From a virus (taxonomy: Duplodnaviria; Heunggongvirae; Uroviricota; Caudoviricetes), in IMG/VR virus record IMGVR_UViG_2778261458_000007: DNA of 39,379 bases; one strand, 5' to 3'. A model generated the notes under the pieces. The model did no database searches and was not told the origin of the DNA. It was given only the letters and a program-made list of their open reading frames with translations. The translations under genes were made by a program, and so were the position numbers. The number at the start of each line of letters is the position of its first letter. Positions within the stretch are counted from its first letter, which is position 1. Below, piece after piece: positions 1-39,379 of this stretch.

Positions 1-1251
1 GTGCTTACCGATACAAAATTAAAAAACCTCAAGCCGCAGGACAAACTGTACAAGGTCTCCGATCGTGACGGGCTGTATGTAGCTGTGCTTACGTCAGGCA
101 CGGTCTCGTTTCGCTATGACTACCGTATCAACGGTCGCCGCGAAACACTGGTAATCGGGCAGTATGGGCGTGACGGTATCAGCCTGGCAGAAGCGCGAGA
201 AGAACTGATTGCTGCAAAGAAGCTGCTTAAAGCAGGCCAGTCACCGGCTGCGGCTAAACGTGACGGTATCAAAAAGATTCGTGGTGCCGAGACGTTTGCT
301 GTACATACCGACAGTTATATGAAACACGTCATCCTGGCTGACAGTACCCGCGCAATGAAACAGGCGGTGATCGACCGTGACATACTTCCGGTTCTTGGCA
401 ATAAAATGATGGCTGAAATTACCACATCGATGGTTCGTGATTTGTGTGACCGGATTGTCGAACGCGGTGGCCGGGCAACAGCAGTGCAGGCCAGGGAGAT
501 CATCAGTAGCGTATACCGTCACGCCAATGACCGTGGTCATGGTTTGTTTAATCCTGCGGCTGACATTAAACCTTCGTCTATCGCCATATTTAAACCAAGA
601 GAGCGAACACTGACACCAGAAGAAATTGGCCTGTTCTTCCGCACGCTGGATGCCATTGGTGCTATGGGCACTATGAAAATGGCTTTAAAGCTGGTGCTTA
701 TCACTATGGTTCGTAAAGGCGAATTCACCAACGCAACGTGGGATGAAATAGATTTTAAAAAATGGACATGGACCATTCCTTCAGACCGCATGAAGGGAAG
801 CCGGGCTCACGTTATTTACCTGCCTAAACAGGCTCAGGATATATTGGTCGGATTGCAGATGTGCGCTGGTGGAAGTGAATATCTGGTTCCTGGTCGTTAC
901 AATTTCCGGAAGCCATTATCTAATGCCGCGCTGAACTCTCTGATCGACAGAACGGTGAAAATAATAAATGAAGATGGTGAGCATATTCAGGGCTTCACCG
1001 TACACGATATGCGCCGTACAGCCAGTACATTGTTGCATGAGGCTAGTTATCCTTCAGACTGGATTGAAAAGGCTCTGGCACATGAGCAGAAAGGTGTGCG
1101 CGCCGTATATAACAAAGCGGAATACGCCAGACAGCGCGCCTACATGTTGCAGCAGTGGGCCGATATGATTGATTCCTGGATTGACGGGGAGCATACGGAT
1201 CTGATTCCGTTCTCCCCGTCGAAGTTTGAGAAGTGGATGGCGGGGGAATAA
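1..1251 (+). CDS. int: Tyrosine-type site-specific integrase (P4-like family)
   Basis: 416-aa ORF with GTG start at window edge; catalytic motifs HDMRRT (H-x-x-R) and VRAVYNKAEY (Tyr); N-terminal arm-binding-like region. Confidence 0.85.
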   Translation: MLTDTKLKNLKPQDKLYKVSDRDGLYVAVLTSGTVSFRYDYRINGRRETLVIGQYGRDGISLAEAREELIAAKKLLKAGQSPAAAKRDGIKKIRGAETFAVHTDSYMKHVILADSTRAMKQAVIDRDILPVLGNKMMAEITTSMVRDLCDRIVERGGRATAVQAREIISSVYRHANDRGHGLFNPAADIKPSSIAIFKPRERTLTPEEIGLFFRTLDAIGAMGTMKMALKLVLITMVRKGEFTNATWDEIDFKKWTWTIPSDRMKGSRAHVIYLPKQAQDILVGLQMCAGGSEYLVPGRYNFRKPLSNAALNSLIDRTVKIINEDGEHIQGFTVHDMRRTASTLLHEASYPSDWIEKALAHEQKGVRAVYNKAEYARQRAYMLQQWADMIDSWIDGEHTDLIPFSPSKFEKWMAGE

Positions 1252-11439: not shown

Positions 11440-12911
11440 CAGATACAGCGTTATCTCCTGAAGAGCAGTTGATCGAGGATATTGCAGGGTTCACTCACGA
11501 TCCGCTTGGCTATGCCCTCTATGCGTTCCCGTGGGGGGAAGAGGGGACTGAACTGGCACATGCCACCGGCCCACGTCAGTGGCAGGCTGATGCGTTCCGA
11601 GAGATACGTGATCACCTGCAGAATCCAGAGACGCGCTATCAGCCGCTTATGCTGGCACGCGCTTCTGGTCACGGTATTGGTAAATCCGCATTCATCTCAA
11701 TGCTGATCAACTGGGGCATGTCCACTTGCGAGGATTGTAAGGTCGTGGTGACCGCCAACACCGACAACCAGCTACGAACGAAGACCTGGCCGGAAATTAT
11801 CAAGTGGTCGAACCTTGCTATCACGAAAGACTGGTTTACCTGTACCGCTACCGCGATGTACAGCAATGATCCTGGGCACGACAAGCGGTGGCGAGCTGAC
11901 GCAATCCCCTGGTCTGAGCACAACACTGAGGCATTCGCCGGACTACACAACGAGCGCAAACGCATCATCGTGGTATTCGATGAAGCGTCGAACATTGCCG
12001 ATCTGGTGTGGGAGGTAGCAGAGGGTGCGCTGACGGACGAAGACACCGAAATCATCTGGGTGGCGTTCGGGAACCCGACGCGTAACACCGGGCGTTTCCG
12101 TGAATGTTTCCGCAAGTACAAACACCGCTGGAAGTGTGCGCAGATTGACAGCCGGACGGTGGAAGGCACTAACAAACAGCAGTTGCAGAAATGGGTTGAT
12201 GACTACGGGGAAGACAGCGACTTCGTTAAAATCCGTGTGCGCGGCATATTCCCTGATGCATCTGAATTGCAGTTTATCCCTACCGGTCTTACTGATGAGG
12301 CAATGAAACGGGTGGTAACCGCTGCGCAGGTTGCACATGCTCCGGTGATAATCGGCGTTGACCCGGCATACTCAGGCGTTGATGACGCGGTGATATACCT
12401 GCGGCAGGGGCTGCACAGTAAGGTGCTATGGACTGGTAACAAGACCACCGACGATCTGATTATGGCGAAGCGTATCGCTGACTTTGAAGACCAGTACCAG
12501 GCTGACGCGGTGTTCATCGACTTCGGTTACGGAACCGGTCTGAAGTCAATCGGTGACGGATGGGGTCGTACATGGCAACTTGTTCCGTTCGGTGGCGCGT
12601 CTACTGACCCGCAGATGCTCAACAAGCGTGGGGAGATGTTCAATTCATGCAAGACATGGCTGAGGCTGGGCGGCATGCTGGATGACCAGGAAACAGCAGA
12701 CGACCTGTCGGCGGCTGAGTACAAAGTTCGTGTGGACGGTAAAATCGTTATCGAACCGAAGGAAGATATCAAAGAGCGTCTTGGGCGTTCGCCGGGTAAA
12801 GGCGATGCGCTACTGCTGACGTTTGCGTTCCCTGTGTCGAAGCGTCTGCGAATTCCTGGGCAGCAGAACCAGCAAGGCAAGGCCATCACAGATTATGACC
12901 CGTATGCTTAA
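11436..12911 (+). CDS. Terminase large subunit
   Basis: 491-aa ORF; Walker A-like GHGIGKS; acidic nuclease-type C-terminal region; coupled to terS. Confidence 0.85.
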   Translation: MTDTALSPEEQLIEDIAGFTHDPLGYALYAFPWGEEGTELAHATGPRQWQADAFREIRDHLQNPETRYQPLMLARASGHGIGKSAFISMLINWGMSTCEDCKVVVTANTDNQLRTKTWPEIIKWSNLAITKDWFTCTATAMYSNDPGHDKRWRADAIPWSEHNTEAFAGLHNERKRIIVVFDEASNIADLVWEVAEGALTDEDTEIIWVAFGNPTRNTGRFRECFRKYKHRWKCAQIDSRTVEGTNKQQLQKWVDDYGEDSDFVKIRVRGIFPDASELQFIPTGLTDEAMKRVVTAAQVAHAPVIIGVDPAYSGVDDAVIYLRQGLHSKVLWTGNKTTDDLIMAKRIADFEDQYQADAVFIDFGYGTGLKSIGDGWGRTWQLVPFGGASTDPQMLNKRGEMFNSCKTWLRLGGMLDDQETADDLSAAEYKVRVDGKIVIEPKEDIKERLGRSPGKGDALLLTFAFPVSKRLRIPGQQNQQGKAITDYDPYA

Positions 12912-13577: not shown

Positions 13578-13654
13578 TGGCGTGGCATGCAGGATTCGAA
13601 CCTGCGACCAACCGCTTAGAAGGCGGTTGCTCTGTCCAACTGAGCTAATGCCAC
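13578..13654 (-). tRNA. tRNA-Arg (anticodon UCU)
   Basis: 77-nt cloverleaf on minus strand: acceptor GTGGCAT/ATGCCAC, D-arm GCTC...GAGC, anticodon stem ACCGC/GCGGT with loop CTTCTAA, T-arm GCAGG-TTCGAAT-CCTGC, encoded CCA; own terminator downstream. Confidence 0.85.
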
Positions 13655-23275: not shown

Positions 23276-25789
23276 ATGCCAGTTGTACCAACAACATCGG
23301 GCCGTCAGGTTCAGAGCAGAGGGATTTCGACGCAGGGATTCTCATCGTTTCAGACTCCAAATGTCGGTGATGTACTTGGCGATGTTGCAGAGCAATATGC
23401 AGGTATTATTGCGCAGGCAAAACAGCGTGCGAATGTTGCTATGGCTCAGGATGCTTCTCTTAGCTTAAGCCAGATAAGCAGCGATCTGCTGAATAACCCT
23501 GAAACAGGTTTGCTTAACCTGAAAGGGAAAAATGCTATTGGAAAAGGTCAGGAGTATACGCAGCAGTTTGATGCTCAGGTCGAACAACTGGCTATGTCGC
23601 TGCCTGATGAACAGGCTCGTAATGCTTTCATGCAGCAGGCGCAGCAGCAGCGCATTCAGTTCACTACGCAGGCCGGGCGGCACGAGATAGGGCAAATTAA
23701 TGCCTACGAAGAAGGTCAGTTTCAGGCGACGCTGCTGAACAATGGTAAAAATGCCGCAGCATTGTATGGCGACAACACCGCATACGTATTGGCTAATAAG
23801 CAAACTTTCCAGCAAATTGAGGAGTACGGTGTTGCACATGGCTGGAGCGACGAGCAAATACAGGCCAAGAAAATCGAGTTTAAAGAGAAGGTTGCTGATG
23901 CCGCATTGTCCCAGTGGTCGGCAAACAATGCGACCGCATTCATCCAAAGTAATGGCGAGTTAAGTGATACTGCTGCTGGAGCTCGCCGTGCTGTAGCAGA
24001 TAGTGACTCTTCCGAGCATGCCCGTGGCATACGCAACAATAACCCAGGAAATCTCGAATACAGCAAAACTAATCCGTGGGTAGGCCAGACCGGTGATGAT
24101 GGTCGATTTGCTAAATTCGAAACACCTGAACACGGGATTCGTGCATTAGGGCGGAACCTGATGTCGTATCAGAGGCAGGGTATTGATACCGTCAGTGAGA
24201 TAATTAATCGCTGGGCACCGCCTACTGATAAAAATGACACTATGTCGTATATCAAAGCAGTGTGCGAACAACTTGGCGTTTCTGCTGATGAGCCTCTCGA
24301 TGCATCAAATCCTGATACCCTGAAGGCGCTTTGTGCAGCCATTATCCATCATGAGAACGGTAGCCAGCCATACAGTGATCAGCAGTTAACTGCTGGTGTC
24401 AGTGCAGCACTTGGTTTATCAACAATTCCAACCAACACCAAACGCTATACCGGTAATGCAGCATTCGATGCGGCATCTCCTGAGGCTCAGGCAAGTTTTA
24501 TGCGACAGGCGGATCAACTGCGTCGGCAGCAGCAGGCTGAATATAAAACGATGCTCGACAGCCGGGTTCGCGATGCGACGGCTGCGTATATGCGTGGCGT
24601 TGAATTTCCTAACCCACCAGGTGAGGATGATTTTATTGCAGCTTATGGCGTCAGAGAAGGAAACCTGCGATATACCGAGTTCAGAAATACGCAGATCGCC
24701 GGACAGTATATAGGCTCTTTCCGCAACATGCCGACAAGCAGCATTACAGCATATGTTGAGCAATTGCGCCCAGATACTGGTGAGACAGGGGAGGGTTATG
24801 CGGCACGAGTCGCTCTTTATGACAACGTTGTGTCGGCTGCAAATCAGGTGATAAAGCAGCGGCAGTCGGATCCTGTGCAGTTCTCTCTTGCCTCCGGACA
24901 GGCAAAGCCTATCGACATGAGCAATAAGGATAACTTTGGACAGAGCGTTGCCTTGCGTGCCGCTCAGGTCAGTGACCTTGCTAAGTCATATGGCACTCCA
25001 CTGACGTTCTTTTCCAAAGACGAGGCCAATCAGATCGGTGTTTTCTTTCGTGATGCGCCCGTTTCCCAACAGGCAGCATATCTCGATACCATCAGGCAGA
25101 GCACTGGTGGTGGGAAGGTGTATATGTCAGCACTACAGCAGATTAGTGCCAACGCGCCATCTGCTGCCGTTGCCGGGATACTGATGGATAAGCCTGGTGG
25201 TATTTTGGCAGAAAAAAACTGGTTTAATCCGGATGTTTCCGTGTCTCCTGAAACCGCTGCGCAGACAATTCTTGCTGGCGCGGCGGCTCGTAAAGGTACT
25301 GATGATGCGAAAGGTATTCCGATGCCTAAAGATGCTGATCTTCGCCTTGAGTTTTCTGACATGGTGAAGGATGCATTTGCTGGTGACGCTCAGGGGGCAT
25401 CAATGGCATACGAGATCGCAAAGGACTATTACGCTGGTGTGATGGCGAAAAAAGGCGTGGTATCAGGCGAAATTGACAATGATGTCTGGAAACAGGCTGT
25501 TAACGTAGCTACAGGTGGCGTGCATGACTATAACGGAATGGGGAATGTCCTTTTGCCGTGGGGAATGTCTGCAGAGCAATTCGATAAGCAGGTTAATCAG
25601 GCTTGGAATGAACAAGTTGTCGGCACCGGGATAAAAACACCGCCTGGTCAGTATGGTTTGCAAAGTTACGGCGATAGTCAGTACCTGGTGAAACTTGGTA
25701 CTGGTTATCTGCTGAAAGATGATGGTTCTCCTGTTGTTCTTGATCTGACACAGAAGCGTCAGAGATTCTCCGGAGATATTCCGCAATGA
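23276..25789 (+). CDS. Internal virion / DNA-ejection protein (837 aa)
   Basis: Large ORF in core-protein position with RBS AAGGGG; contains a conserved-looking segment IRNNNPGNLEY...RWAPP. Confidence 0.45.
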   Translation: MPVVPTTSGRQVQSRGISTQGFSSFQTPNVGDVLGDVAEQYAGIIAQAKQRANVAMAQDASLSLSQISSDLLNNPETGLLNLKGKNAIGKGQEYTQQFDAQVEQLAMSLPDEQARNAFMQQAQQQRIQFTTQAGRHEIGQINAYEEGQFQATLLNNGKNAAALYGDNTAYVLANKQTFQQIEEYGVAHGWSDEQIQAKKIEFKEKVADAALSQWSANNATAFIQSNGELSDTAAGARRAVADSDSSEHARGIRNNNPGNLEYSKTNPWVGQTGDDGRFAKFETPEHGIRALGRNLMSYQRQGIDTVSEIINRWAPPTDKNDTMSYIKAVCEQLGVSADEPLDASNPDTLKALCAAIIHHENGSQPYSDQQLTAGVSAALGLSTIPTNTKRYTGNAAFDAASPEAQASFMRQADQLRRQQQAEYKTMLDSRVRDATAAYMRGVEFPNPPGEDDFIAAYGVREGNLRYTEFRNTQIAGQYIGSFRNMPTSSITAYVEQLRPDTGETGEGYAARVALYDNVVSAANQVIKQRQSDPVQFSLASGQAKPIDMSNKDNFGQSVALRAAQVSDLAKSYGTPLTFFSKDEANQIGVFFRDAPVSQQAAYLDTIRQSTGGGKVYMSALQQISANAPSAAVAGILMDKPGGILAEKNWFNPDVSVSPETAAQTILAGAAARKGTDDAKGIPMPKDADLRLEFSDMVKDAFAGDAQGASMAYEIAKDYYAGVMAKKGVVSGEIDNDVWKQAVNVATGGVHDYNGMGNVLLPWGMSAEQFDKQVNQAWNEQVVGTGIKTPPGQYGLQSYGDSQYLVKLGTGYLLKDDGSPVVLDLTQKRQRFSGDIPQ

Positions 25790-30608: not shown

Positions 30609-31112
30609 TTATACTATTGAGTTTAATGATATCTTGTCCTTAATATCATTAAGTTTGCCATATATCTTTTTTGCATAAAAATCAGCATCCTCAATAAACC
30701 TCGACTTCTCATTATCAGGCATATTTTTGAAGGTATGTGCACATGTATATTGAGAGTAGTATTTGTGAAATTCTTGATACGCATTATTGAGTTCTTGTAA
30801 GTCTTTTTTATACTCAGGAAGGTATATGTTTATTAGCATTTCCATCGTTTGCAACGGATTCGCTCTTGATACGTCAAATTTACTATCAGAGTGGTATCTG
30901 GCATTTTTTACGAAATTGAGAATGGTAATTGTGCTTGAATCTATGACTTTTTTAGTAAGTATACAATTTATAAATAATTGCTCGCATTTATCCCTTAATA
31001 TTTTTTGTCGCTCTAATCTTATGCTGTTTTTGTATCCTTGTCTTGCATTTATATAAGTGGAAACTATAGCAATAACTGCACCTATCAATGCGCCTAAGAT
31101 AGTATTATCCAT
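30609..31112 (-). CDS. Membrane-anchored protein of unknown function
   Basis: Start ATG 31112 with AGGTGG upstream; one N-terminal TM segment (ILGALIGAVIAIVSTYI); AT-rich coding sequence. Confidence 0.5.
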   Translation of the reverse strand: MDNTILGALIGAVIAIVSTYINARQGYKNSIRLERQKILRDKCEQLFINCILTKKVIDSSTITILNFVKNARYHSDSKFDVSRANPLQTMEMLINIYLPEYKKDLQELNNAYQEFHKYYSQYTCAHTFKNMPDNEKSRFIEDADFYAKKIYGKLNDIKDKISLNSIV

Positions 31113-31137
31113 ATAAGCCACCTAAACTGCGTAAAAT

Positions 31138-32001
31138 TTATTTCCTGCCACTTCTGTAGTATATGTTGCGACCATTTTTGGTCACATTAACAACATGACC
31201 CTTTGTTTCTACTTTGTTATTTGTTGCCTTATATACTTCAAAGTCAAACCATGATATATGACTTATTTCGTCTATAGATACCATAATTTCTAGACCTTGA
31301 ACTTTCTTTTTGCTTATCCCTTTTATCGCAGCACTGCGCTTAATTTGGATTTCACCTGGGTAAGCGTTTGTAAATGTAACAGATAAATTTTCTTTGTTTC
31401 TGTACCCTGACATTAAAGGAACAAAAGATATGTGTTGGTGTGGCCCTTGATTTTCCGTTGGCTCACCAGAACCATTTATTATTCCAACGTATACTTTATT
31501 TGATGATAAAGTAATTAACATTGGTTTCTTAGGATCTGATTCGATTGCATCAAGCAATAGCAAATCTAAAGAACCCTGGGAGTACGTTTTTCGCAATACC
31601 CTAGCTTTCATTGCCTCTGATATTTTGTCATAAATATCACGTTTATAAAAACAACCTAAAAGAAGATCTTTTAGCCAAACAAAAGATACATAACACAAAG
31701 AGAAGCAAATTGATGTGACTGACAGAAGAAGTAGCCACATGTAAATTCTATCTGTTTCTGGTTTTGACGTTACATTAAAAGTTTCCACCATATCGTGAAC
31801 TAGGTGAAAATCAGGATATTTATATTTTATAAATGAGGCAATTATTACCGAAGCAACAAGGCAATATGTACCTAATGCAGCTACTTTCATATAAAGAAGC
31901 TGGCCTTCATGTCGGTATAAACGGAAATAATGATACTGGTTAGCGGTTATCATAATATAACCACTAACCAGAATGGGGATAATTAGAAGAGCTAACAACA
32001 C
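31138..32001 (-). CDS. Membrane protein of unknown function (three N-terminal TM segments plus soluble domain)
   Basis: 287-aa ORF; GTG start overlapping stop of upstream 69-aa gene, RBS AAGGA; hydrophobic stretches at roughly residues 1-20, 40-60, 85-105; AT-rich. Confidence 0.5.
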   Translation of the reverse strand: MLLALLIIPILVSGYIMITANQYHYFRLYRHEGQLLYMKVAALGTYCLVASVIIASFIKYKYPDFHLVHDMVETFNVTSKPETDRIYMWLLLLSVTSICFSLCYVSFVWLKDLLLGCFYKRDIYDKISEAMKARVLRKTYSQGSLDLLLLDAIESDPKKPMLITLSSNKVYVGIINGSGEPTENQGPHQHISFVPLMSGYRNKENLSVTFTNAYPGEIQIKRSAAIKGISKKKVQGLEIMVSIDEISHISWFDFEVYKATNNKVETKGHVVNVTKNGRNIYYRSGRK

Positions 32002-33803: not shown

Positions 33804-36077
33804 ATGACGGTCTCAACCGAAGTTGACCACAACGAATACACCGGTAACGGCGCTACGACATCATTTCCGTATACCTTCCGTATTTTCAAAAAATCCGACC
33901 TGGTTGTTCAGGTGTCTGACCTGAACGGGAACGTAACAGAATTGGTTCTGGATACCGGTTATGCGGTAACTGGGGCGGGCACTTATAGTGGCGGTTCTGT
34001 TGTTCTGCCGTCTCCGCTTGCTGCTGGCTGGCGAATTACGATAGATCGTGTGCTTGATGTAGTGCAGGAGACAGATCTTCGCAATCAGGGAAAATTTTTC
34101 CCCGAAGTGCATGAAGATGCTTTTGACTACCTGACGATGCTGATCCAGCAATGTTTTGGGTGGTTCAGACGTGCATTGATGAAACCATCTTTGCTTGCAA
34201 AATATTACGATGCAAAGCAAAACAGAATTTCTAACCTTGCAGATCCATCACTTGAGCAGGACGCTGTAAATAATCGCTCAATGCGTAATTATGTCGATGC
34301 TGCAATCGCCGGGGTTGTTGGTGGTTTTGGTTGGTTTATTCAGTATGGTTCTGGGGCAGTATACAGAACGTTCCAGGATAAAATGCGTGACATATACAGT
34401 GTCAAGGATTTTGGTGCTATAGGTGACGGTGTGATCAATGATACTGCTGCGATCGCATATGCGTCTGTGAATCAGATGATAGATCTTGGGCGCGGGATTT
34501 ACAAAGTGGACTCCTTGTCACTTGCCCTTGGGGCAATATCGTCTGGAGCTACAATAACCCTTAGCGGACGTCACGAAAATATTATCTCTCCTCTTTTTGC
34601 TGGTGAGTTAATAGGTAATCTTACCATACAGGGGGACTCGCCTGTGACATTAAGTGTCATATCCGCCAGTATTTCATTCTCTAGCACCTTCCAGGTAGAA
34701 TATTATGCAGATGATTTTCGCTCAGCTAAGTACCAGCTTGTAGACGTTCTGTTAAGTGGGGCAGTACAGGTCGGCAATATGCTGCTAATAAGGGCTGACC
34801 AACCAGAGTTGTCAGGCTGTTTCGAAGTGGTTGGTGTTCCTGCTGAAAATACTGCTCGGGTATTGATGCTTGCGCAAGGTTCGCTAGATATAAGTAGTTT
34901 TACCGGAACTGCTAAGGTTCTTACAACAGTTCTTCAGTTTTCCAATATTACCCCGATTGATGTGTCTGGTGGTAATCTGAAACTGGTTAATATCGGCATT
35001 CTTGGTGCTTGTTATCCAGTCAAAAATGGTTCACGTTCAAATGTGTACGATCCTCGTGGAAGCAATGGTGTATCGGGTATTGTTGCGAGAAATGGCGGTA
35101 TTGTGCTCGGCGTAGATTCTGGAATATCAGGAGTTTCAGGGACTCAGCTTGTCGGCGTCGATAGTGGGGAAATTGACTGGACAGGGTGTTTCGTATCTTG
35201 CGGTGGTCGAAATGGAATATCCGCATCATTAGGTAAACTAACCTTCGCAAGTGGCGTAGCCACGCAAAACTTGCTGGACAATGTGATAACGCAGGATCAG
35301 AGTTTCGGTTTTGCAACATCATCAATTTCTGCACATGCAGGCAGGAACGGTTATATCTCTTCAACTAACTCCACCTGCAATTTGTCAGGCAGCAACTCTC
35401 AACAAAACGGATTTATGGATCCTACCAATGGTAATGGTGCCAGTGCTTCCAGTGGAAATCTAACAGTCATTGGATGTCAAATAAAAAACAATGCTAATGC
35501 TGGCATAATAGGGATTGGAAGTTCTGACATTCGTGGGACAGGAATAAATGTCCAATGGAATTCATATGGAGTATTAATGGACACTGCTTCTCATGCATTG
35601 GTTACAGGGATAGTTAATAACAATTCTGTCACCGATTTACTGGCACGTAACCGGGGTAAAATAGAAGCTATTAATGTAACGCACACGACGTCAAAACCAC
35701 AAGTTAACCTTACAGACGGAACTGGAGCATTGGTTCAGAATACATCCGGAATTGATGATTTTCGTACCTCTGGCGGGCTGGAAGTTGCCGGAGGTGGAGT
35801 TATAAAAAAGGTTATCCGAATGCGAGTTACAGGTGTCGATTTTCCAACTGTTCCTGCTGGTAGCCAGCAATCGGTATCGGTATCAGTGCCTGGCGTCATA
35901 TCGTCTTATGAAAACGTAGTAATAGTGCAGAGAGACTCTACTAATAACAGGTCTGGATTGATGTATGAAGCAATTGTATCTTCAGATAATACTGTGCTTA
36001 TAACTTGTAATAACTTCTCTACATCAGAGATAGACCCTCCTGCTGAAAACTTCAATCTGGTTGTTTTTTCTTTCTAA
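33804..36077 (+). CDS. Tailspike protein (N-terminal particle-binding domain plus beta-helix receptor-binding domain)
   Basis: 757-aa ORF; N-terminus MTVSTEVDHNEYTGNGATTSFPYTF typical of podovirus tailspikes; VKDFGAIGDGVINDTAAI motif typical of pectate-lyase-like beta-helix. Confidence 0.8.
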   Translation: MTVSTEVDHNEYTGNGATTSFPYTFRIFKKSDLVVQVSDLNGNVTELVLDTGYAVTGAGTYSGGSVVLPSPLAAGWRITIDRVLDVVQETDLRNQGKFFPEVHEDAFDYLTMLIQQCFGWFRRALMKPSLLAKYYDAKQNRISNLADPSLEQDAVNNRSMRNYVDAAIAGVVGGFGWFIQYGSGAVYRTFQDKMRDIYSVKDFGAIGDGVINDTAAIAYASVNQMIDLGRGIYKVDSLSLALGAISSGATITLSGRHENIISPLFAGELIGNLTIQGDSPVTLSVISASISFSSTFQVEYYADDFRSAKYQLVDVLLSGAVQVGNMLLIRADQPELSGCFEVVGVPAENTARVLMLAQGSLDISSFTGTAKVLTTVLQFSNITPIDVSGGNLKLVNIGILGACYPVKNGSRSNVYDPRGSNGVSGIVARNGGIVLGVDSGISGVSGTQLVGVDSGEIDWTGCFVSCGGRNGISASLGKLTFASGVATQNLLDNVITQDQSFGFATSSISAHAGRNGYISSTNSTCNLSGSNSQQNGFMDPTNGNGASASSGNLTVIGCQIKNNANAGIIGIGSSDIRGTGINVQWNSYGVLMDTASHALVTGIVNNNSVTDLLARNRGKIEAINVTHTTSKPQVNLTDGTGALVQNTSGIDDFRTSGGLEVAGGGVIKKVIRMRVTGVDFPTVPAGSQQSVSVSVPGVISSYENVVIVQRDSTNNRSGLMYEAIVSSDNTVLITCNNFSTSEIDPPAENFNLVVFSF

Positions 36078-36992: not shown

Positions 36993-37611
36993 ACAATTCC
37001 AGCGAGCTGCTGGTATTAGCGAGGCGCTGGCCGCTCGCTGGTTCTCGCATATAACTTCTGCGATGAAAGAGTTTGGTATCAGCAAAGCAGAAGATCAGGC
37101 AATGTTTATTGCTCAAGTCGGGCATGAGTCTGTGGGCTTCACCAGGTTGCAGGAGAATTTCAACTACAGTGTCAGCGGACTGGCTAACTTCGTTCGGGCT
37201 GGGCGTCTCACTCAGTGGCAGGCTAATGCACTTGGTCGCCGTGCTGGTGAACCACCATTGCCACTCGAGCGCCAGCGCGCGATCGCAAATCTGGTGTACA
37301 GCAAACGCATGGGGAACAATGCCCCTGGTGATGGCTGGAATTACCGAGGGCGCGGACTTATCCAGATTACCGGTTTGAATAACTATCGTGATTGCGGAAA
37401 CGGTCTGAAGGTTGACCTGCTGGAGAGTCCTGAACTGCTGGCGCAGGACGAATATGCGGCCCGTAGCGCGGCGTGGTTCTTCGTTAGCAAAGGATGCATG
37501 AAGTATACCGGCGATATTGCACGTGTAACTCTGATTATCAATGGTGGCCGGAACGGCATCGACGACCGGCGCGCGCGGTACATCACTGCCAGTAAGGTGC
37601 TGGCGGTATGA
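36982..37611 (+). CDS. Endolysin, glycoside hydrolase family 19-like
   Basis: Motifs FIAQVGHES and GRGLIQITG typical of GH19 phage endolysins; RBS GAGGT. Confidence 0.75.
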
Positions 37612-38090
37612 TCTGGGCATTCGTAAAAGCATACTGGAAACAGTTGCTTATCGTGGCGGTGCCTGCTGTTCTGGTCATATCAGGAGTTGTTGCCTGGAAT
37701 GTACACGGTAGCCGTCAGTACGACGCCGGGTATGCGCAGGCGAAAGAAGACCGCAAAGCCGAAGAAGAAAAAGTTCGTCAGTACTACGAACAGGAGAAAG
37801 CGACCAATGAACGTGAAGCTCAGCAGAGGATCGACCAGGCGCGCAATGATGCTCTTGATGCTGCCGCTCGCGCTGGCCGGTTGCAGCAACAACTCTTTGC
37901 CATCCGTGAGCAGCTCAGGCAGTATAACGCCATTGTCGGCGCTGGGACGTCAGCCGCAGACACCGGAGTTTTGCTTGCCGACGTGCTCAGCAAATCTCTC
38001 GAGAGAAACAGACAACTGGCAGAGTATGCTGACCGGGCAGCCGAAGCCGGAAGAGTCTGCGAAAAACAGTACGACACACTGACCAGATAG
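37608..38090 (+). CDS. i-spanin (Rz-like)
   Basis: N-terminal TM segment then charged coiled-coil region; start overlaps endolysin stop (ATGA). Confidence 0.6.
37807..38082 (+). CDS. o-spanin (Rz1-like lipoprotein) embedded in +1 frame of i-spanin gene
   Basis: ATG 37807 with AGGAGAAAG RBS; signal peptide with lipobox LAGC; Pro/Ser-rich mature part; entirely within Rz-like gene. Confidence 0.55.
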   Translation: MNVKLSRGSTRRAMMLLMLPLALAGCSNNSLPSVSSSGSITPLSALGRQPQTPEFCLPTCSANLSRETDNWQSMLTGQPKPEESAKNSTTH

Positions 38091-38171
38091 CATGGCATTT
38101 TTCATGGTACTGATTTCCGGTGACGGTATATAAAACGGTACAGTGAAAATCACGTTTCGGAAAGTTGTTAT

Positions 38172-38208
38172 CACTCAATTATTTATGCATGCCGTAAATA
38201 ATTGAGTG
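38172..38208. other. 37-bp near-perfect palindrome (14-bp arms CACTCAATTATTTA / TAAATAATTGAGTG)
   Basis: Inverted repeat with 9-nt loop TGCATGCCG between spanin stop and bidirectional terminator, near expected prophage-host junction. Confidence 0.5.
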
Positions 38209-38240
38209 GAATGATTTTGATCCCTGCACTATGAATGAAC

Positions 38241-38270
38241 AAAACCCTCTGTTACTACAGAGGGTTTTTT
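38241..38270. terminator. Bidirectional intrinsic terminator at prophage right end
   Basis: Hairpin CCCTCTGT-TACT-ACAGAGGG flanked by AAAA upstream and TTTTTT downstream. Confidence 0.7.
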
Positions 38271-38308
38271 ATACTCACGAATCATAGGCTTGAAGTTACT
38301 GACATCGC

Positions 38309-38848
38309 TTAGTTAAACCAGCTGTCCGATTTGTTCTCTTCTGCTTTGCCCACGCTTTTCATCAGATCTCGACCGCCCTCAGTCATATTCCTGTTTGCGT
38401 CAGCTTCAGATTGCACCACATCGGTTTGCGCAGCTTTGTGCTTCAGTTCCTGATCGATAGATTCGTTTTCTCGCTTAACGCGGGCTTCTTCTTTCGCCAG
38501 CGCCAGTTTTTGTTTCTGAATCTCTAAGCTGCGTAGCTCATCTTCATAACTTTGATCGCGTTTTTTGTCCGCAGAGGCTTCGGCGTCCAGTTTATCCTGA
38601 CGAGCTTTCTTATTTGCCGCTGCCGTTGCCGCTCTTTTGTTAGCGGCGGCCTGGGCGTTTGCGCGACGTTGCTTCTCTTGCTGGATTTCCCTGTTGCGCT
38701 CCGCGACCCATTCGTCATGCTGCCTTTGCTCTTCATTTTTACCTTGCTGTTCCGCTTCTGCGACAGCAGAGAGTTGATCCTGCAATGATGAGGCGATAGC
38801 CGGATAGCTTAAGGAGGCTAAGATGGCGCAAAGAAAAACTTTCTTCAT
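38309..38848 (-). CDS. Secreted coiled-coil protein (host-like)
   Basis: Signal peptide MKKVFLCAILASLSYPAIA then Gln/Lys/Glu-rich sequence; lies beyond phage lysis cassette and bidirectional terminator. Confidence 0.45.
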   Translation of the reverse strand: MKKVFLCAILASLSYPAIASSLQDQLSAVAEAEQQGKNEEQRQHDEWVAERNREIQQEKQRRANAQAAANKRAATAAANKKARQDKLDAEASADKKRDQSYEDELRSLEIQKQKLALAKEEARVKRENESIDQELKHKAAQTDVVQSEADANRNMTEGGRDLMKSVGKAEENKSDSWFN

Positions 38849-38863
38849 GACTCCTCCTGATCA

Positions 38864-39379
38864 TTAGCTCTTTTCAGGACATTTGGTATTTGGCTGAATA
38901 CGCGTTTCGTTATACGTCGTGGTAATAACAACGGCTAAACCTGTCGTAAACTGGCACTCTTTACCCACCTGGGTGGAGGTATACACTTTGGTGCCTTCCT
39001 TATACGTTAGAGAAACACCTTCCACTAAGGTTTTATCATTCACCATAGAACCCGCTGCCGCGCCAACAGCTCCGCCGCCAACTGCACCTGCCGTCGTTCC
39101 GGAATTGCTGCCAGACCCGACGTTGTGGCCAATAACACCGCCAGCGACTGCACCAATAAGCGCGCCGAAGGCTTGTGCGTTTCGTTTATTTTGGGAGTTG
39201 TCTACGGCAACTTTTGCGGGAAGAATGGAAATAATATTAACGGTTTTAGTTTCTTGTTTGGTATTCAGTTGATCGGTTTGATAAACATCGGCGGCATGAT
39301 CATCAGCATTTGACTGGCATCCTGCCAGAGTGAATGACGCTAACATTGCCACAGGCAGAAGACATTTTTTAAATTTCAT
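38864..39379 (-). CDS. Glycine-zipper outer-membrane lipoprotein (YcfJ-like)
   Basis: Lipobox LAGC; Gly-zipper GALIGAVAGGVIGHNVGSGS...GAVGGGAVGAAAG; start at window edge. Confidence 0.55.
   Translation of the reverse strand: MKFKKCLLPVAMLASFTLAGCQSNADDHAADVYQTDQLNTKQETKTVNIISILPAKVAVDNSQNKRNAQAFGALIGAVAGGVIGHNVGSGSNSGTTAGAVGGGAVGAAAGSMVNDKTLVEGVSLTYKEGTKVYTSTQVGKECQFTTGLAVVITTTYNETRIQPNTKCPEKS

What the first reader, a model, noticed from the sequence alone, without database searches (positions are those of the whole stretch)
38091..38308. Candidate prophage-host junction with a 37-bp palindrome and a bidirectional terminator
Phage genes end with the spanin stop at 38090. The next 220 bp hold a 14-bp-arm inverted repeat (38172-38208) and a strong bidirectional terminator (38241-38270) before host-like genes on the opposite strand. 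Because the integrase is P4-type, attR may carry a short duplicated 3' segment of a tRNA-like target, but attL lies outside the window so the direct repeat cannot be identified here.
Basis: inference. Interest (0 to 1): 0.4.

Follow-up and report, generated by a model that had tools for sequence, protein, structure and literature searches.

The report
Prophage right junction at guaA end
This stretch is the right-hand attachment site of a phiV10/epsilon15-type prophage inserted at the very end of the E. coli guaA gene, a junction already described in the literature, so the finding is correct in outline but ordinary.

Summary
A perfect inverted repeat with 14-bp arms lies at 38172-38208 and a strong two-way terminator hairpin at 38241-38268, between the spanin stop (38090) and the host gene yfgI (38309).

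The interval is attR of a Uetakevirus (phiV10/epsilon15-like) prophage. Similarity to free phage genomes runs up to 38216, and similarity to the empty site in E. coli K-12 starts at 38201. The shared core is ATTGAGTGGGAATGATT, the last four codons and stop of guaA plus TT. It is published as the attP/attB core of phiV10, epsilon15 and vB_EcoP_ZX5.

- **Target:** it is a protein gene end, not a tRNA. No tRNA or tmRNA similarity was found.
- **Terminator:** it is host DNA, the guaA/yfgI convergent terminator present at the empty site.
- **Palindrome:** it is phage P-arm DNA whose right arm runs 8 bp into the core. Comparison of 116 relatives fits an IHF-type bending site 28 bp before the core, not a selected hairpin.
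- **Small extras:** this attR core lacks one G (GGG to GG). About 6% of sampled attR cores carry some lesion, and two others have the same deletion. The phage also carries its own near-copy of the guaA terminator.

Novelty: already known. Interest: low.

The parts
1..1251 (+). P4-type tyrosine integrase of the prophage, at the far (attL) end. Its 5' part carries three exact copies of the arm-type motif TGACGGTAT (171-179 +, 261-269 +, 513-521 -).
   Evidence: Pfam PF13356, PF22022 and PF00589. 100% identical over the window's first 4251 bases (int and the adjoining genes) to loci where guaA lies just upstream. Motif positions.
37608..38090 (+). Rz-like i-spanin (DUF2514), the last phage gene. 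The embedded Rz1 o-spanin is at 37807-38082.
   Evidence: Pfam PF10721, E 3e-43. Same layout as annotated in phiV10 and epsilon15. A lipobox LALAGC is visible in the +2 frame ORF.
38091..38200 (.). P arm of attR: non-coding phage DNA between the spanin stop and the core.
   Evidence: Free phage genomes (phiV10, ZX5, epsilon15 and others) align up to window position 38216 and no further (alignment). Positions 38091-38140 are 50/50 identical to epsilon15, against 88% in the adjacent Rz gene.
38121..38129 (+). Candidate arm-type integrase binding motif TGACGGTAT, 80 bp before the core. A degenerate second copy AAACGGTAC lies at 38133-38141 (-68).
   Evidence: The exact 9-mer is at -80 in the window, phiV10, epsilon15 and in L130, an element with a different P arm that has copies at -80 and -68. 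Further copies lie at +142 and +171(-) in the P' arm. The window has 21 matches at up to 1 mismatch against 6.8 expected. The 10-bp sites at the same places are annotated as integrase binding in the epsilon15 record.
38172..38208 (.). 37-bp palindrome (14-bp arms, 9-bp spacer). The left arm lies in the P arm. The right arm spans the last 6 bp of the P arm and the first 8 bp of the core.
   Evidence: Comparative behaviour in 116 relatives.
38173..38185 (+). IHF-like site ACTCAATTATTTA (12 of 13 to WATCAANNNNTTR), 28 bp before the core. A mirror match lies at 38195-38207 on the - strand.
   Evidence: the same -28 offset in phiV10 and epsilon15, and a perfect consensus at -28 in L130. There are 4 matches in 220 bp against 0.48 expected. 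The epsilon15 GenBank record annotates IHF sites over both arms.
38201..38216 (.). att core ATTGAGTGG-AATGATT. This is 16 bp here; the canonical core is 17 bp, ATTGAGTGGGAATGATT. One G of the central GGG run is missing.
   Evidence: The four-way attL/attP/attR/attB alignment, the core listing and the published core (PMC9782041). The missing G is the single gapped position in 4.7 kb against three of four near-identical lysogens, and in 3.2 kb against the fourth, L013; the core listing places it in the GGG run.
38217..38308 (.). B' arm: host guaA-yfgI intergenic DNA, in the TTGATCCC allele.
   Evidence: It aligns with the K-12 empty site from the core onward. A synthetic empty-site sequence carrying this allele matches many E. 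coli genomes at 100%.
38241..38268 (.). Host bidirectional intrinsic terminator of the convergent genes guaA and yfgI. In the lysogen it follows the phage lysis genes on one strand and yfgI on the other.
   Evidence: Folding on both strands. It is present and nearly invariant at the empty site in K-12 and in all lysogens.
38309..39379 (-). Host genes yfgI (38309-38848) and yfgH (38864-39379).
   Evidence: Matched in 5422 of 5426 complete E. coli genomes (best place of each at 95% identity or more), annotated yfgI and yfgH. Pfam DUF5384 and glycine zipper. K-12 gene order is yfgH-yfgI-guaA.

Best explanation
The interval is attR, the right junction of a phiV10/epsilon15-type (Uetakevirus) prophage. 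The prophage integrated by tyrosine-recombinase site-specific recombination into the 3' end of the host gene guaA.

Shown: the phage attP and the bacterial attB share a 17-bp core, ATTGAGTGGGAATGATT. It comprises guaA codons Ile-Glu-Trp-Glu, the stop codon and TT. After integration this core flanks the prophage as a direct repeat. At attL, outside the window, it completes guaA, so the gene stays intact. guaA is then followed by a phage-borne hairpin that is 25/27 identical to its own terminator. At attR, in this window, 110 bp of phage P arm are joined through the core (38201-38216) to the host guaA-yfgI spacer. The host's two-way terminator (38241-38268) therefore now lies after the phage lysis genes and still after yfgI.

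Inferred: the P arm is the protein-binding scaffold of the recombination complex. It has an invariant block with an arm-type integrase motif (TGACGGTAT at -80, with a degenerate copy at -68). It also has an IHF-type bending site at -28, which forms the left arm of the palindrome. The palindrome arises because this IHF-like site (..TCAATT..) is the mirror image of the start of the core (AATTGA..). It is not a hairpin under selection.

Also inferred: the missing G in the core lies in the central GAGTGGGA segment, so it probably reduces excision of this particular prophage, provided it is not a sequencing error.
For: (1) Boundaries. Free phage genomes align to the window up to 38216. K-12, which has no prophage, aligns from 38201 onward. 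The overlap is the core.
(2) The four-way alignment of attL (BEN5202), attP (phiV10, epsilon15), attR (window) and attB (K-12) shows the classical pattern of exchanged arms.
(3) guaA ends ...PATIEWE* in K-12 and ends inside the core in lysogens.
(4) Loci 100% identical to the window's left 4.25 kb have guaA followed by the canonical core 207 bp before int.
(5) The same 17-bp core and the guaA 3' end site were determined experimentally for vB_EcoP_ZX5 by PCR and Sanger sequencing of attB, attL and attR. The paper reports the same core for phiV10 and epsilon15 (PMC9782041). TL-2011b is also reported as inserted in guaA (PMC3293862).
(6) Frequency. 554 of 5426 complete E. coli genomes carry this integrase. 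536 carry the P arm joined to this flank. 4570 have an uninterrupted attB.
(7) IHF reading. In 116 P arms the left arm varies at three of the consensus N positions (arm positions 9-11), at the one non-consensus position, and at arm position 1, which lies outside the 13-nt site. The right arm is unchanged in every sequence, though its inner bases were fixed by the search pattern, so the changes reduce pairing (10-14 of 14, most often 12). The site sits at -28 in all, including L130, whose P-arm sequence is unrelated and whose site is a perfect consensus. The epsilon15 record annotates IHF sites there.
(8) Arm-type motif positions are conserved. The block 38091-38140 is 50/50 identical to epsilon15, against 88% in Rz.
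(9) The terminator is host DNA and folds strongly on both strands.
Against: attL of the actual source genome is not in the window, so the direct repeat is shown only in near-identical relatives. The core here is 16 bp, not 17 bp. No binding or recombination experiment exists for this exact prophage. The IHF and arm-type site assignments rest on consensus matches, conserved position and conservation pattern, not on footprints. The IHF-like site has one mismatch to the consensus. The perfect 14-bp palindrome followed by AATGATTTTG also fits a weak terminator pattern, so an RNA-level role in this lineage is not excluded.
Confidence: 0.92

Rival explanations
1. The palindrome is an RNA hairpin that acts as an intrinsic terminator or stabiliser at the 3' end of the phage lysis transcript, and is selected for its pairing.
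For: The predicted hairpin is -19.5 kcal/mol, z -5.1. The terminator-like scan flags 38171-38209 followed by AATGATTTTG. It lies about 80 nt after the last late gene.
Against: The stem is A/U-rich, with 4 G-C pairs of 17. In free phage attP the sequence after the hairpin is GGAATGATTAAC, with no U run. In 111 of 116 relatives the arms are imperfect, and the right arm never changes to compensate for left-arm changes. A much stronger terminator follows within 60 nt in both the phage and prophage forms. L130 keeps the -28 site but not the palindrome.
Confidence: 0.12
2. The two palindrome arms are the inverted core-type integrase binding sites, and strand exchange takes place in the 9-bp spacer between them.
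For: Lambda-type cores consist of inverted core-type sites around a short overlap region (established knowledge). The palindrome overlaps the core.
Against: The spacer and left arm (38172-38194) have no counterpart in attB. K-12 reads GACATCAGCGGCAAGCCGCCAGCTACC there. Strand exchange needs identity in the overlap region, and that identity exists only at 38201-38216. The spacer is the most variable part of the P arm in relatives.
Confidence: 0.03
3. One reading: the P4-type integrase targets a tRNA or tmRNA-like gene, and attR carries a duplicated tRNA 3' segment.
For: P4-type integrases commonly target tRNA genes (established knowledge). The integrase is P4-type.
Against: There is no tRNA or tmRNA in or near the interval and no Rfam match near any threshold. 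The empty site shows that the duplicated segment is the end of guaA. The published site is the guaA 3' end.
Confidence: 0.01
4. The one-base difference in the core (GG instead of GGG) is a homopolymer sequencing or assembly error, and the prophage has a normal attR.
For: It is a single-base indel in a homopolymer. Four of the seven variant cores among 116 IMG/VR attR sites are single-base indels in the GGG or AA run (GG x2, GGGG, AA to A); three are substitutions. That pattern fits both slippage and sequencing error.
Against: It is the single gapped position in 4.7 kb against three of four near-identical lysogens, and in 3.2 kb against the fourth, so the assembly is not generally indel-prone. 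The same deletion occurs on two other backgrounds with different P arms or flanks (L061, L172). attR is non-coding in the host, so such a mutation is free to persist.
Confidence: 0.4

Closest known systems
attP/attB of Uetakevirus phages phiV10, epsilon15 and vB_EcoP_ZX5 (core attgagtgggaatgatt at the 3' end of guaA)
   Same: The core is the same and so is the position after the lysis cassette and before int. The P arm matches (50/50 identical in the distal block) and the host site between guaA and yfgI is the same.
   Different: One G is missing from the core in this attR. The proximal P arm is a lineage variant that makes the palindrome perfect (14/14 against the usual 12/14). The tailspike and other cargo differ from phiV10.
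Bacteriophage lambda attP architecture (arm-type Int sites, IHF sites H1/H2/H', short core with overlap region)
   Same: It has a tyrosine integrase with an N-terminal arm-binding domain, repeated arm motifs in both arms, an IHF-like site next to the core on the P side (like H2), and a short identity core (lambda layout from established knowledge).
   Different: The integrase clade differs (P4-type). The core lies inside the end of a coding gene rather than in an intergenic region. No binding data exist for this system.
GIsul2 genomic island att site at guaA (core GAGTGGGA)
   Same: It uses the same host target, the last codons of guaA. Its proposed core GAGTGGGA is contained in this phage's core at positions 4-11 (PMC9376610).
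   Different: It is a genomic island, not a phage. Its att sites are reported as 19 bp. Relatedness of the integrases was not tested here.
tRNA-gene integration by P4-like integrases
   Same: The logic is the same. The target is the 3' end of a highly conserved gene, the element carries a copy of that end so the gene is restored, and attP sits next to int.
   Different: The target is a protein-coding gene. Only 15 coding bases are duplicated, and no RNA gene is involved.

Membership tests
Uetakevirus (phiV10/epsilon15-type) attR at guaA | The 17-bp core ATTGAGTGGGAATGATT lies at the junction. | tested here: met
   38201-38216 reads ATTGAGTGGAATGATT, which is 16 of 17 with one G of the GGG run missing. 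The canonical core is present in near-identical lysogens L010-L013.
Uetakevirus (phiV10/epsilon15-type) attR at guaA | The sequence left of the core is homologous to free-phage attP (the P arm after the Rz gene). | tested here: met
   Free phage genomes (phiV10, ZX5, phiv142-3, epsilon15, SPN1S and others) align up to 38215-38217 (38216 for most) and stop there; records that run further (TL-2011b, the Klebsiella prophage records) also contain host flank or the P' arm (alignment; identity).
Uetakevirus (phiV10/epsilon15-type) attR at guaA | The sequence right of the core is homologous to the unoccupied host site (guaA-yfgI spacer). | tested here: met
   K-12 alignment from the core onward. 100% matches to an empty-site sequence with this window's flank allele.
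Uetakevirus (phiV10/epsilon15-type) attR at guaA | A second copy of the core at the other prophage end completes guaA (attL), next to a P4-type integrase. | not testable with these tools
   attL lies about 207 bp before window position 1. It is met in loci 100% identical to the window's first 4251 bp (L007, L008). The integrase domains are confirmed.
Uetakevirus (phiV10/epsilon15-type) attR at guaA | Int-dependent integration and excision take place at this core. | not testable with these tools
   Shown experimentally for ZX5 by PCR and Sanger sequencing of attB, attL and attR (PMC9782041). Not shown for this prophage.
tRNA/tmRNA-targeting P4-like att site | A tRNA or tmRNA gene, or its 3' fragment, lies at the junction. 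| tested here: not met
   ARAGORN finds none near 38091-38308. In the Rfam E-value search, the best hits are unrelated families far below their gathering scores. The target is guaA.
Bidirectional intrinsic (Rho-independent) terminator | A G+C-rich hairpin is flanked by an A run upstream and a T run downstream, so each strand reads as hairpin plus U tract. | tested here: met
   -18.1 and -20.8 kcal/mol, z about -5.8 on both strands. The tails are UUUUUUAU and UUUUGUU.
Bidirectional intrinsic (Rho-independent) terminator | It lies between convergent genes. | tested here: met
   In K-12 it sits in the 92-bp spacer between guaA and yfgI, which converge.
Bidirectional intrinsic (Rho-independent) terminator | Transcripts end there in vivo. 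| not testable with these tools
   No transcript data are available here.
IHF binding site of an attP arm | It matches the consensus WATCAANNNNTTR. | tested here: inconclusive
   12 of 13 at 38173-38185 (+) and 38195-38207 (-). There are 4 sites at up to 1 mismatch in 220 bp against 0.48 expected, reached by 0.2% of shuffles.
IHF binding site of an attP arm | It keeps a fixed position relative to the core, and conservation is confined to the specified consensus positions. | tested here: met
   Offset -28 in the window, phiV10, epsilon15 and L130, where the consensus is perfect and the P arm unrelated. In 116 P arms the variation within the 13-nt site is at three of the four N positions and the one non-consensus position.
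IHF binding site of an attP arm | IHF binds the site and is required for recombination. | not testable with these tools
   Only a predicted annotation exists, in the epsilon15 record.

The most novel reading that the evidence does not exclude
Two small readings are not excluded.

(a) The one-base deletion in the centre of the attR core is real and leaves this prophage unable to excise cleanly. It would belong to a recurrent class: 7 of 116 sampled attR cores at this site are damaged, 4 of them in the same G run. That would mean a measurable fraction of guaA-site prophages are grounded by core lesions.

(b) The phage's own terminator in the P' arm is 25/27 identical to the E. coli guaA terminator, even in the Salmonella phage epsilon15. 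This would be a relic of a much longer captured guaA 3' region, so attP of this phage group would have originated from an Escherichia-type chromosome.
Probability: 0.3. Interest if true: 0.3.

Novelty: already known. Interest (0 to 1): 0.12.

Why it matters
It matters little beyond correct annotation. The result fixes the prophage's right boundary to the base: the core is at 38201-38216, phage DNA ends at 38200 or 38216 depending on convention, and the prophage is about 38.4 kb from core to core. It assigns the palindrome to the phage and the terminator to the host. It corrects the expectation that a P4-type integrase implies a tRNA target.

It also shows why guaA is a good target. The last codons (TIEWE-stop) are identical at the nucleotide level in genomes from many phyla, much like a tRNA 3' end, and other elements such as GIsul2 use the same spot. 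The core lesion could be of practical interest if this prophage's inducibility matters.

Tried and rejected
- **tRNA/tmRNA target:** ARAGORN and an Rfam E-value search found nothing, so it was rejected.
- **Direct repeat inside the window:** the search of the local region 37900-38500 and an alignment of the left end with the right end gave only chance matches, because attL is outside the window.
- **Species-representative genomes:** a scan for the P-arm-plus-core pattern found no match. That collection holds one genome per species and was the wrong tool for a within-species prophage. IMG/VR gave more than 100 sites instead.
- **Simple terminator scan:** it missed the real host terminator and flagged the palindrome. 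Folding resolved this.
- **TTGATCCC flank as phage-derived extended core:** rejected, because the same allele occurs at empty sites in many E. coli genomes.
- **Palindrome arms as core-type sites around the crossover:** rejected, because attB has no homology to the spacer or left arm.
- **A mutational hot spot at the G run:** the first IMG/VR pattern allowed variation only there, so it could not show this. The unbiased pattern gives 4 of 7 lesions in the G run, too few to be conclusive.
- **Source genome:** no complete E. coli genome in the collection carries this exact attR (best full-length match 93.4%), so the source genome's attL could not be read.

Full report
**1. Observation**

The features are real and at the stated coordinates.
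- The last phage ORF is 37608-38090, a DUF2514 Rz-like spanin. An embedded Rz1 lies at 37807-38082. The ORF ends with TAG at 38088-38090.
- A perfect inverted repeat, CACTCAATTATTTA / TAAATAATTGAGTG, occupies 38172-38185 and 38195-38208 with a 9-nt spacer. It is the longest perfect short-range inverted repeat in the window.
- A hairpin pairs 38241-38252 with 38257-38268. It folds at -18.1 kcal/mol on the + strand and -20.8 on the - strand, with z about -5.8. No shuffle in 200 folds as well, and U tracts follow on both strands.
- From 38309 the genes run on the opposite strand. They are yfgI and yfgH, matched in 5422 of 5426 complete E. coli genomes with every best match at 95% identity or more.

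**2. What it is**

In E. coli K-12 the gene order is yfgH, yfgI, then guaA on the converging strand, with a 92-bp spacer and no prophage. I aligned the window with K-12, with lysogens, with free phage genomes and with an attL region. This gives the classical four-site picture.
- attB (K-12): ...CCAGCTACC ATTGAGTGGGAATGATT TGACCCTGCACTATG...
- attP (phiV10): ...GCCGTAAATA ATTGAGTGGGAATGATT AACAGCTAACTCATAGC...
- attL (BEN5202): guaA side, then core, then phage P' side.
- attR (window): phage P side, then core, then host side.

Free phage genomes (phiV10, vB_EcoP_ZX5, phiv142-3, epsilon15, SPN1S and others) match the window up to 38215-38217, most of them to 38216, and stop there. The records that run further (TL-2011b, Klebsiella prophage records) also carry host flank or the P' arm. 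K-12 matches from 38201 onward. The overlap, 38201-38216, is the core.

guaA ends ...PATIEWE*. The core is therefore the last four codons, the stop codon and TT. In lysogens the annotated guaA CDS ends inside the attL core.

The prophage is a Uetakevirus-type podovirus. Its integrase (1-1251) has Arm-DNA-bind_3, Phage_int_M and Phage_integrase domains. The window begins exactly at the int start codon. The attL core lies 207 bp upstream of int in relatives, two of which are 100% identical to the window's first 4251 bp.

**3. Already known**

[quoted passage not shown] The paper reports the same core for phiV10 and epsilon15 (PMC9782041). TL-2011b is also reported as inserted in guaA (PMC3293862). 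About one in ten complete E. coli genomes carries such a prophage here:
- 554 of 5426 genomes carry this integrase.
- 536 carry the P arm joined to this flank.
- 4570 have an uninterrupted attB.

**4. The two structures belong to different partners**

The terminator is host DNA. It is present at the empty site, where it serves the convergent genes guaA and yfgI. It is essentially invariant in all E. coli flanks sampled. In the lysogen it lies after the phage lysis genes on one strand and after yfgI on the other.

The palindrome is phage DNA. Its left arm and spacer lie in the P arm. Its right arm is the last 6 bp of the P arm plus the first 8 bp of the core.

**5. What the palindrome does (inference)**

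Several observations fit an IHF-type bending site better than a hairpin under selection.
- In 116 related P arms the left arm always sits in the same place.
- It varies at arm positions 1, 3, 9, 10 and 11. Position 1 lies outside the 13-nt site. Against the IHF consensus WATCAANNNNTTR, the others are three of the four N positions and the single non-consensus position. TCAA, TT and R never change.
- The right arm never changes in this sample, though its inner bases were fixed by the search pattern. The left-arm changes therefore only lower complementarity, to 10-14 of 14, most often 12. The perfect palindrome is confined to this window and four close relatives.
- The IHF-like site lies 28 bp before the core in the window, phiV10 and epsilon15.
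- L130 is an element with an unrelated P-arm sequence but the same core. It has a perfect IHF consensus at the same -28 offset and no palindrome.
- The epsilon15 GenBank record carries predicted IHF sites over both arms.

The palindromic look arises because TCAATT of the site mirrors AATTGA at the start of the core.

Further out, the block 38091-38140 is 50/50 identical to epsilon15. The neighbouring Rz gene is 88% identical and the proximal arm 70%. This block holds TGACGGTAT at -80 and a degenerate copy at -68. The same motif is at -80 in all relatives, at -80 and -68 in L130, and at +142 and +171(-) in the P' arm. Three more copies lie in the 5' part of int. These match the sites annotated as integrase binding in epsilon15. 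I read them as arm-type sites. The layout parallels lambda attP, but no binding data exist.

**6. Rivals**
- A terminator role for the palindrome is weakly possible. It is disfavoured by the A/U-rich stem, the lack of a U tract in attP, the absence of compensatory change, and a strong terminator 60 nt further on.
- Core-type sites around a crossover in the spacer are excluded, because attB has no homology there.
- A tRNA-like target is excluded.

**7. Small peculiarities**

(a) The core here reads ATTGAGTGG-AATGATT, with one G missing.
- It is the single gapped position in 4.7 kb against three of four near-identical lysogens, and in 3.2 kb against the fourth; the core listing places it in the GGG run.
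- The flank allele TTGATCCC that follows is a normal host polymorphism found at empty sites.
- In an unbiased sample of 116 attR sites from IMG/VR, 109 cores are canonical and 7 are altered. The alterations are GG twice (on other backgrounds), GGGG, GGA, AA to A, and two substitutions.
- The G run lies in GAGTGGGA, the segment proposed as the recombination core of GIsul2 at the same host site.
- If the deletion is real it would create heterology with attL and probably impair excision. It could equally be a homopolymer error.

(b) The phage carries its own hairpin, AACCCTCTGTTTTTACAGAGGGTTTTT, in the P' arm.
- It is 25/27 identical to the host guaA terminator (score 44 against a shuffle mean of 14.4; 0 of 1000 shuffles reach it).
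- guaA is therefore followed by a near-identical copy of its own terminator hairpin after integration.

(c) The 17-mer preceded by ACN was found at guaA ends (...KPPxTIEWE*) in at least 120 species representatives. They span Proteobacteria, Firmicutes, Cyanobacteria, Actinobacteria and an archaeon. This explains why the site behaves like a tRNA end as an integration target.

**8. Verdict**

The system is already known, so interest is low.

Noticed in passing
window 38209-38210 (core 38201-38216): The attR core has GG where the canonical core has GGG. In 116 IMG/VR attR sites, 7 cores are altered, and 2 of them have the same deletion on other backgrounds (L061, L172).
   Followed up: partly
L005 3360-3383 (phiV10 P' arm); L007 2855-2878 (attL); compare window 38243-38266: The phage carries its own terminator hairpin, 25/27 identical to the E. 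coli guaA terminator. After integration it sits behind guaA. It is present even in the Salmonella phage epsilon15, with one change.
   Followed up: partly
window 171-179, 261-269, 513-521(-), 24186-24194(-): Exact copies of the arm-type motif TGACGGTAT lie inside the 5' part of the integrase gene, and one lies far away in a structural gene. The first two coincide with sites annotated as integrase binding in the epsilon15 record.
   Followed up: partly
L130 around 11842-12050 (IMG/VR contig): A different element has an unrelated P-arm sequence but uses the same 17-bp core. It has two TGACGGTAT copies at -80 and -68 and a perfect IHF consensus at -28. Its right flank begins TCGCGTCTGGCAACAGCC.
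   Followed up: partly
L173-L292 (species-representative genomes): The guaA end ACN ATT GAG TGG GAA TGA TT is identical in genomes from many phyla. Several unrelated genera share near-identical sequence right after it (for example CCGCGTCTGGCACAGCCAGGCACCTGATGGCA, and TCGCGTCTGGCAACAGCCTGCACGTAAAAGCA). This suggests other integrated elements, possibly GIsul2-like, at the same site.
   Followed up: no
window 13578-13654 (-): A tRNA-Arg (anticodon TCT) gene lies inside the prophage.
   Followed up: no
window 30609-32001 (-) and 33804-36077 (+): Two ORFs of 170 and 287 aa lie on the opposite strand, where phiV10 and epsilon15 carry O-antigen-modifying genes. They have no Pfam match. The 757-aa tailspike also has no Pfam match and differs from that of phiV10.
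   Followed up: no
E. coli genomes H24-H30: In several E. coli genomes an IS200C copy interrupts the region matching window 38091-39379 (yfgI/yfgH and spacer).
   Followed up: no
window 1 and 39379: The window starts exactly at the integrase start codon (GTG) and ends exactly at the yfgH start codon. It was therefore cut on gene boundaries, and attL is missed by about 200 bp.
   Followed up: yes
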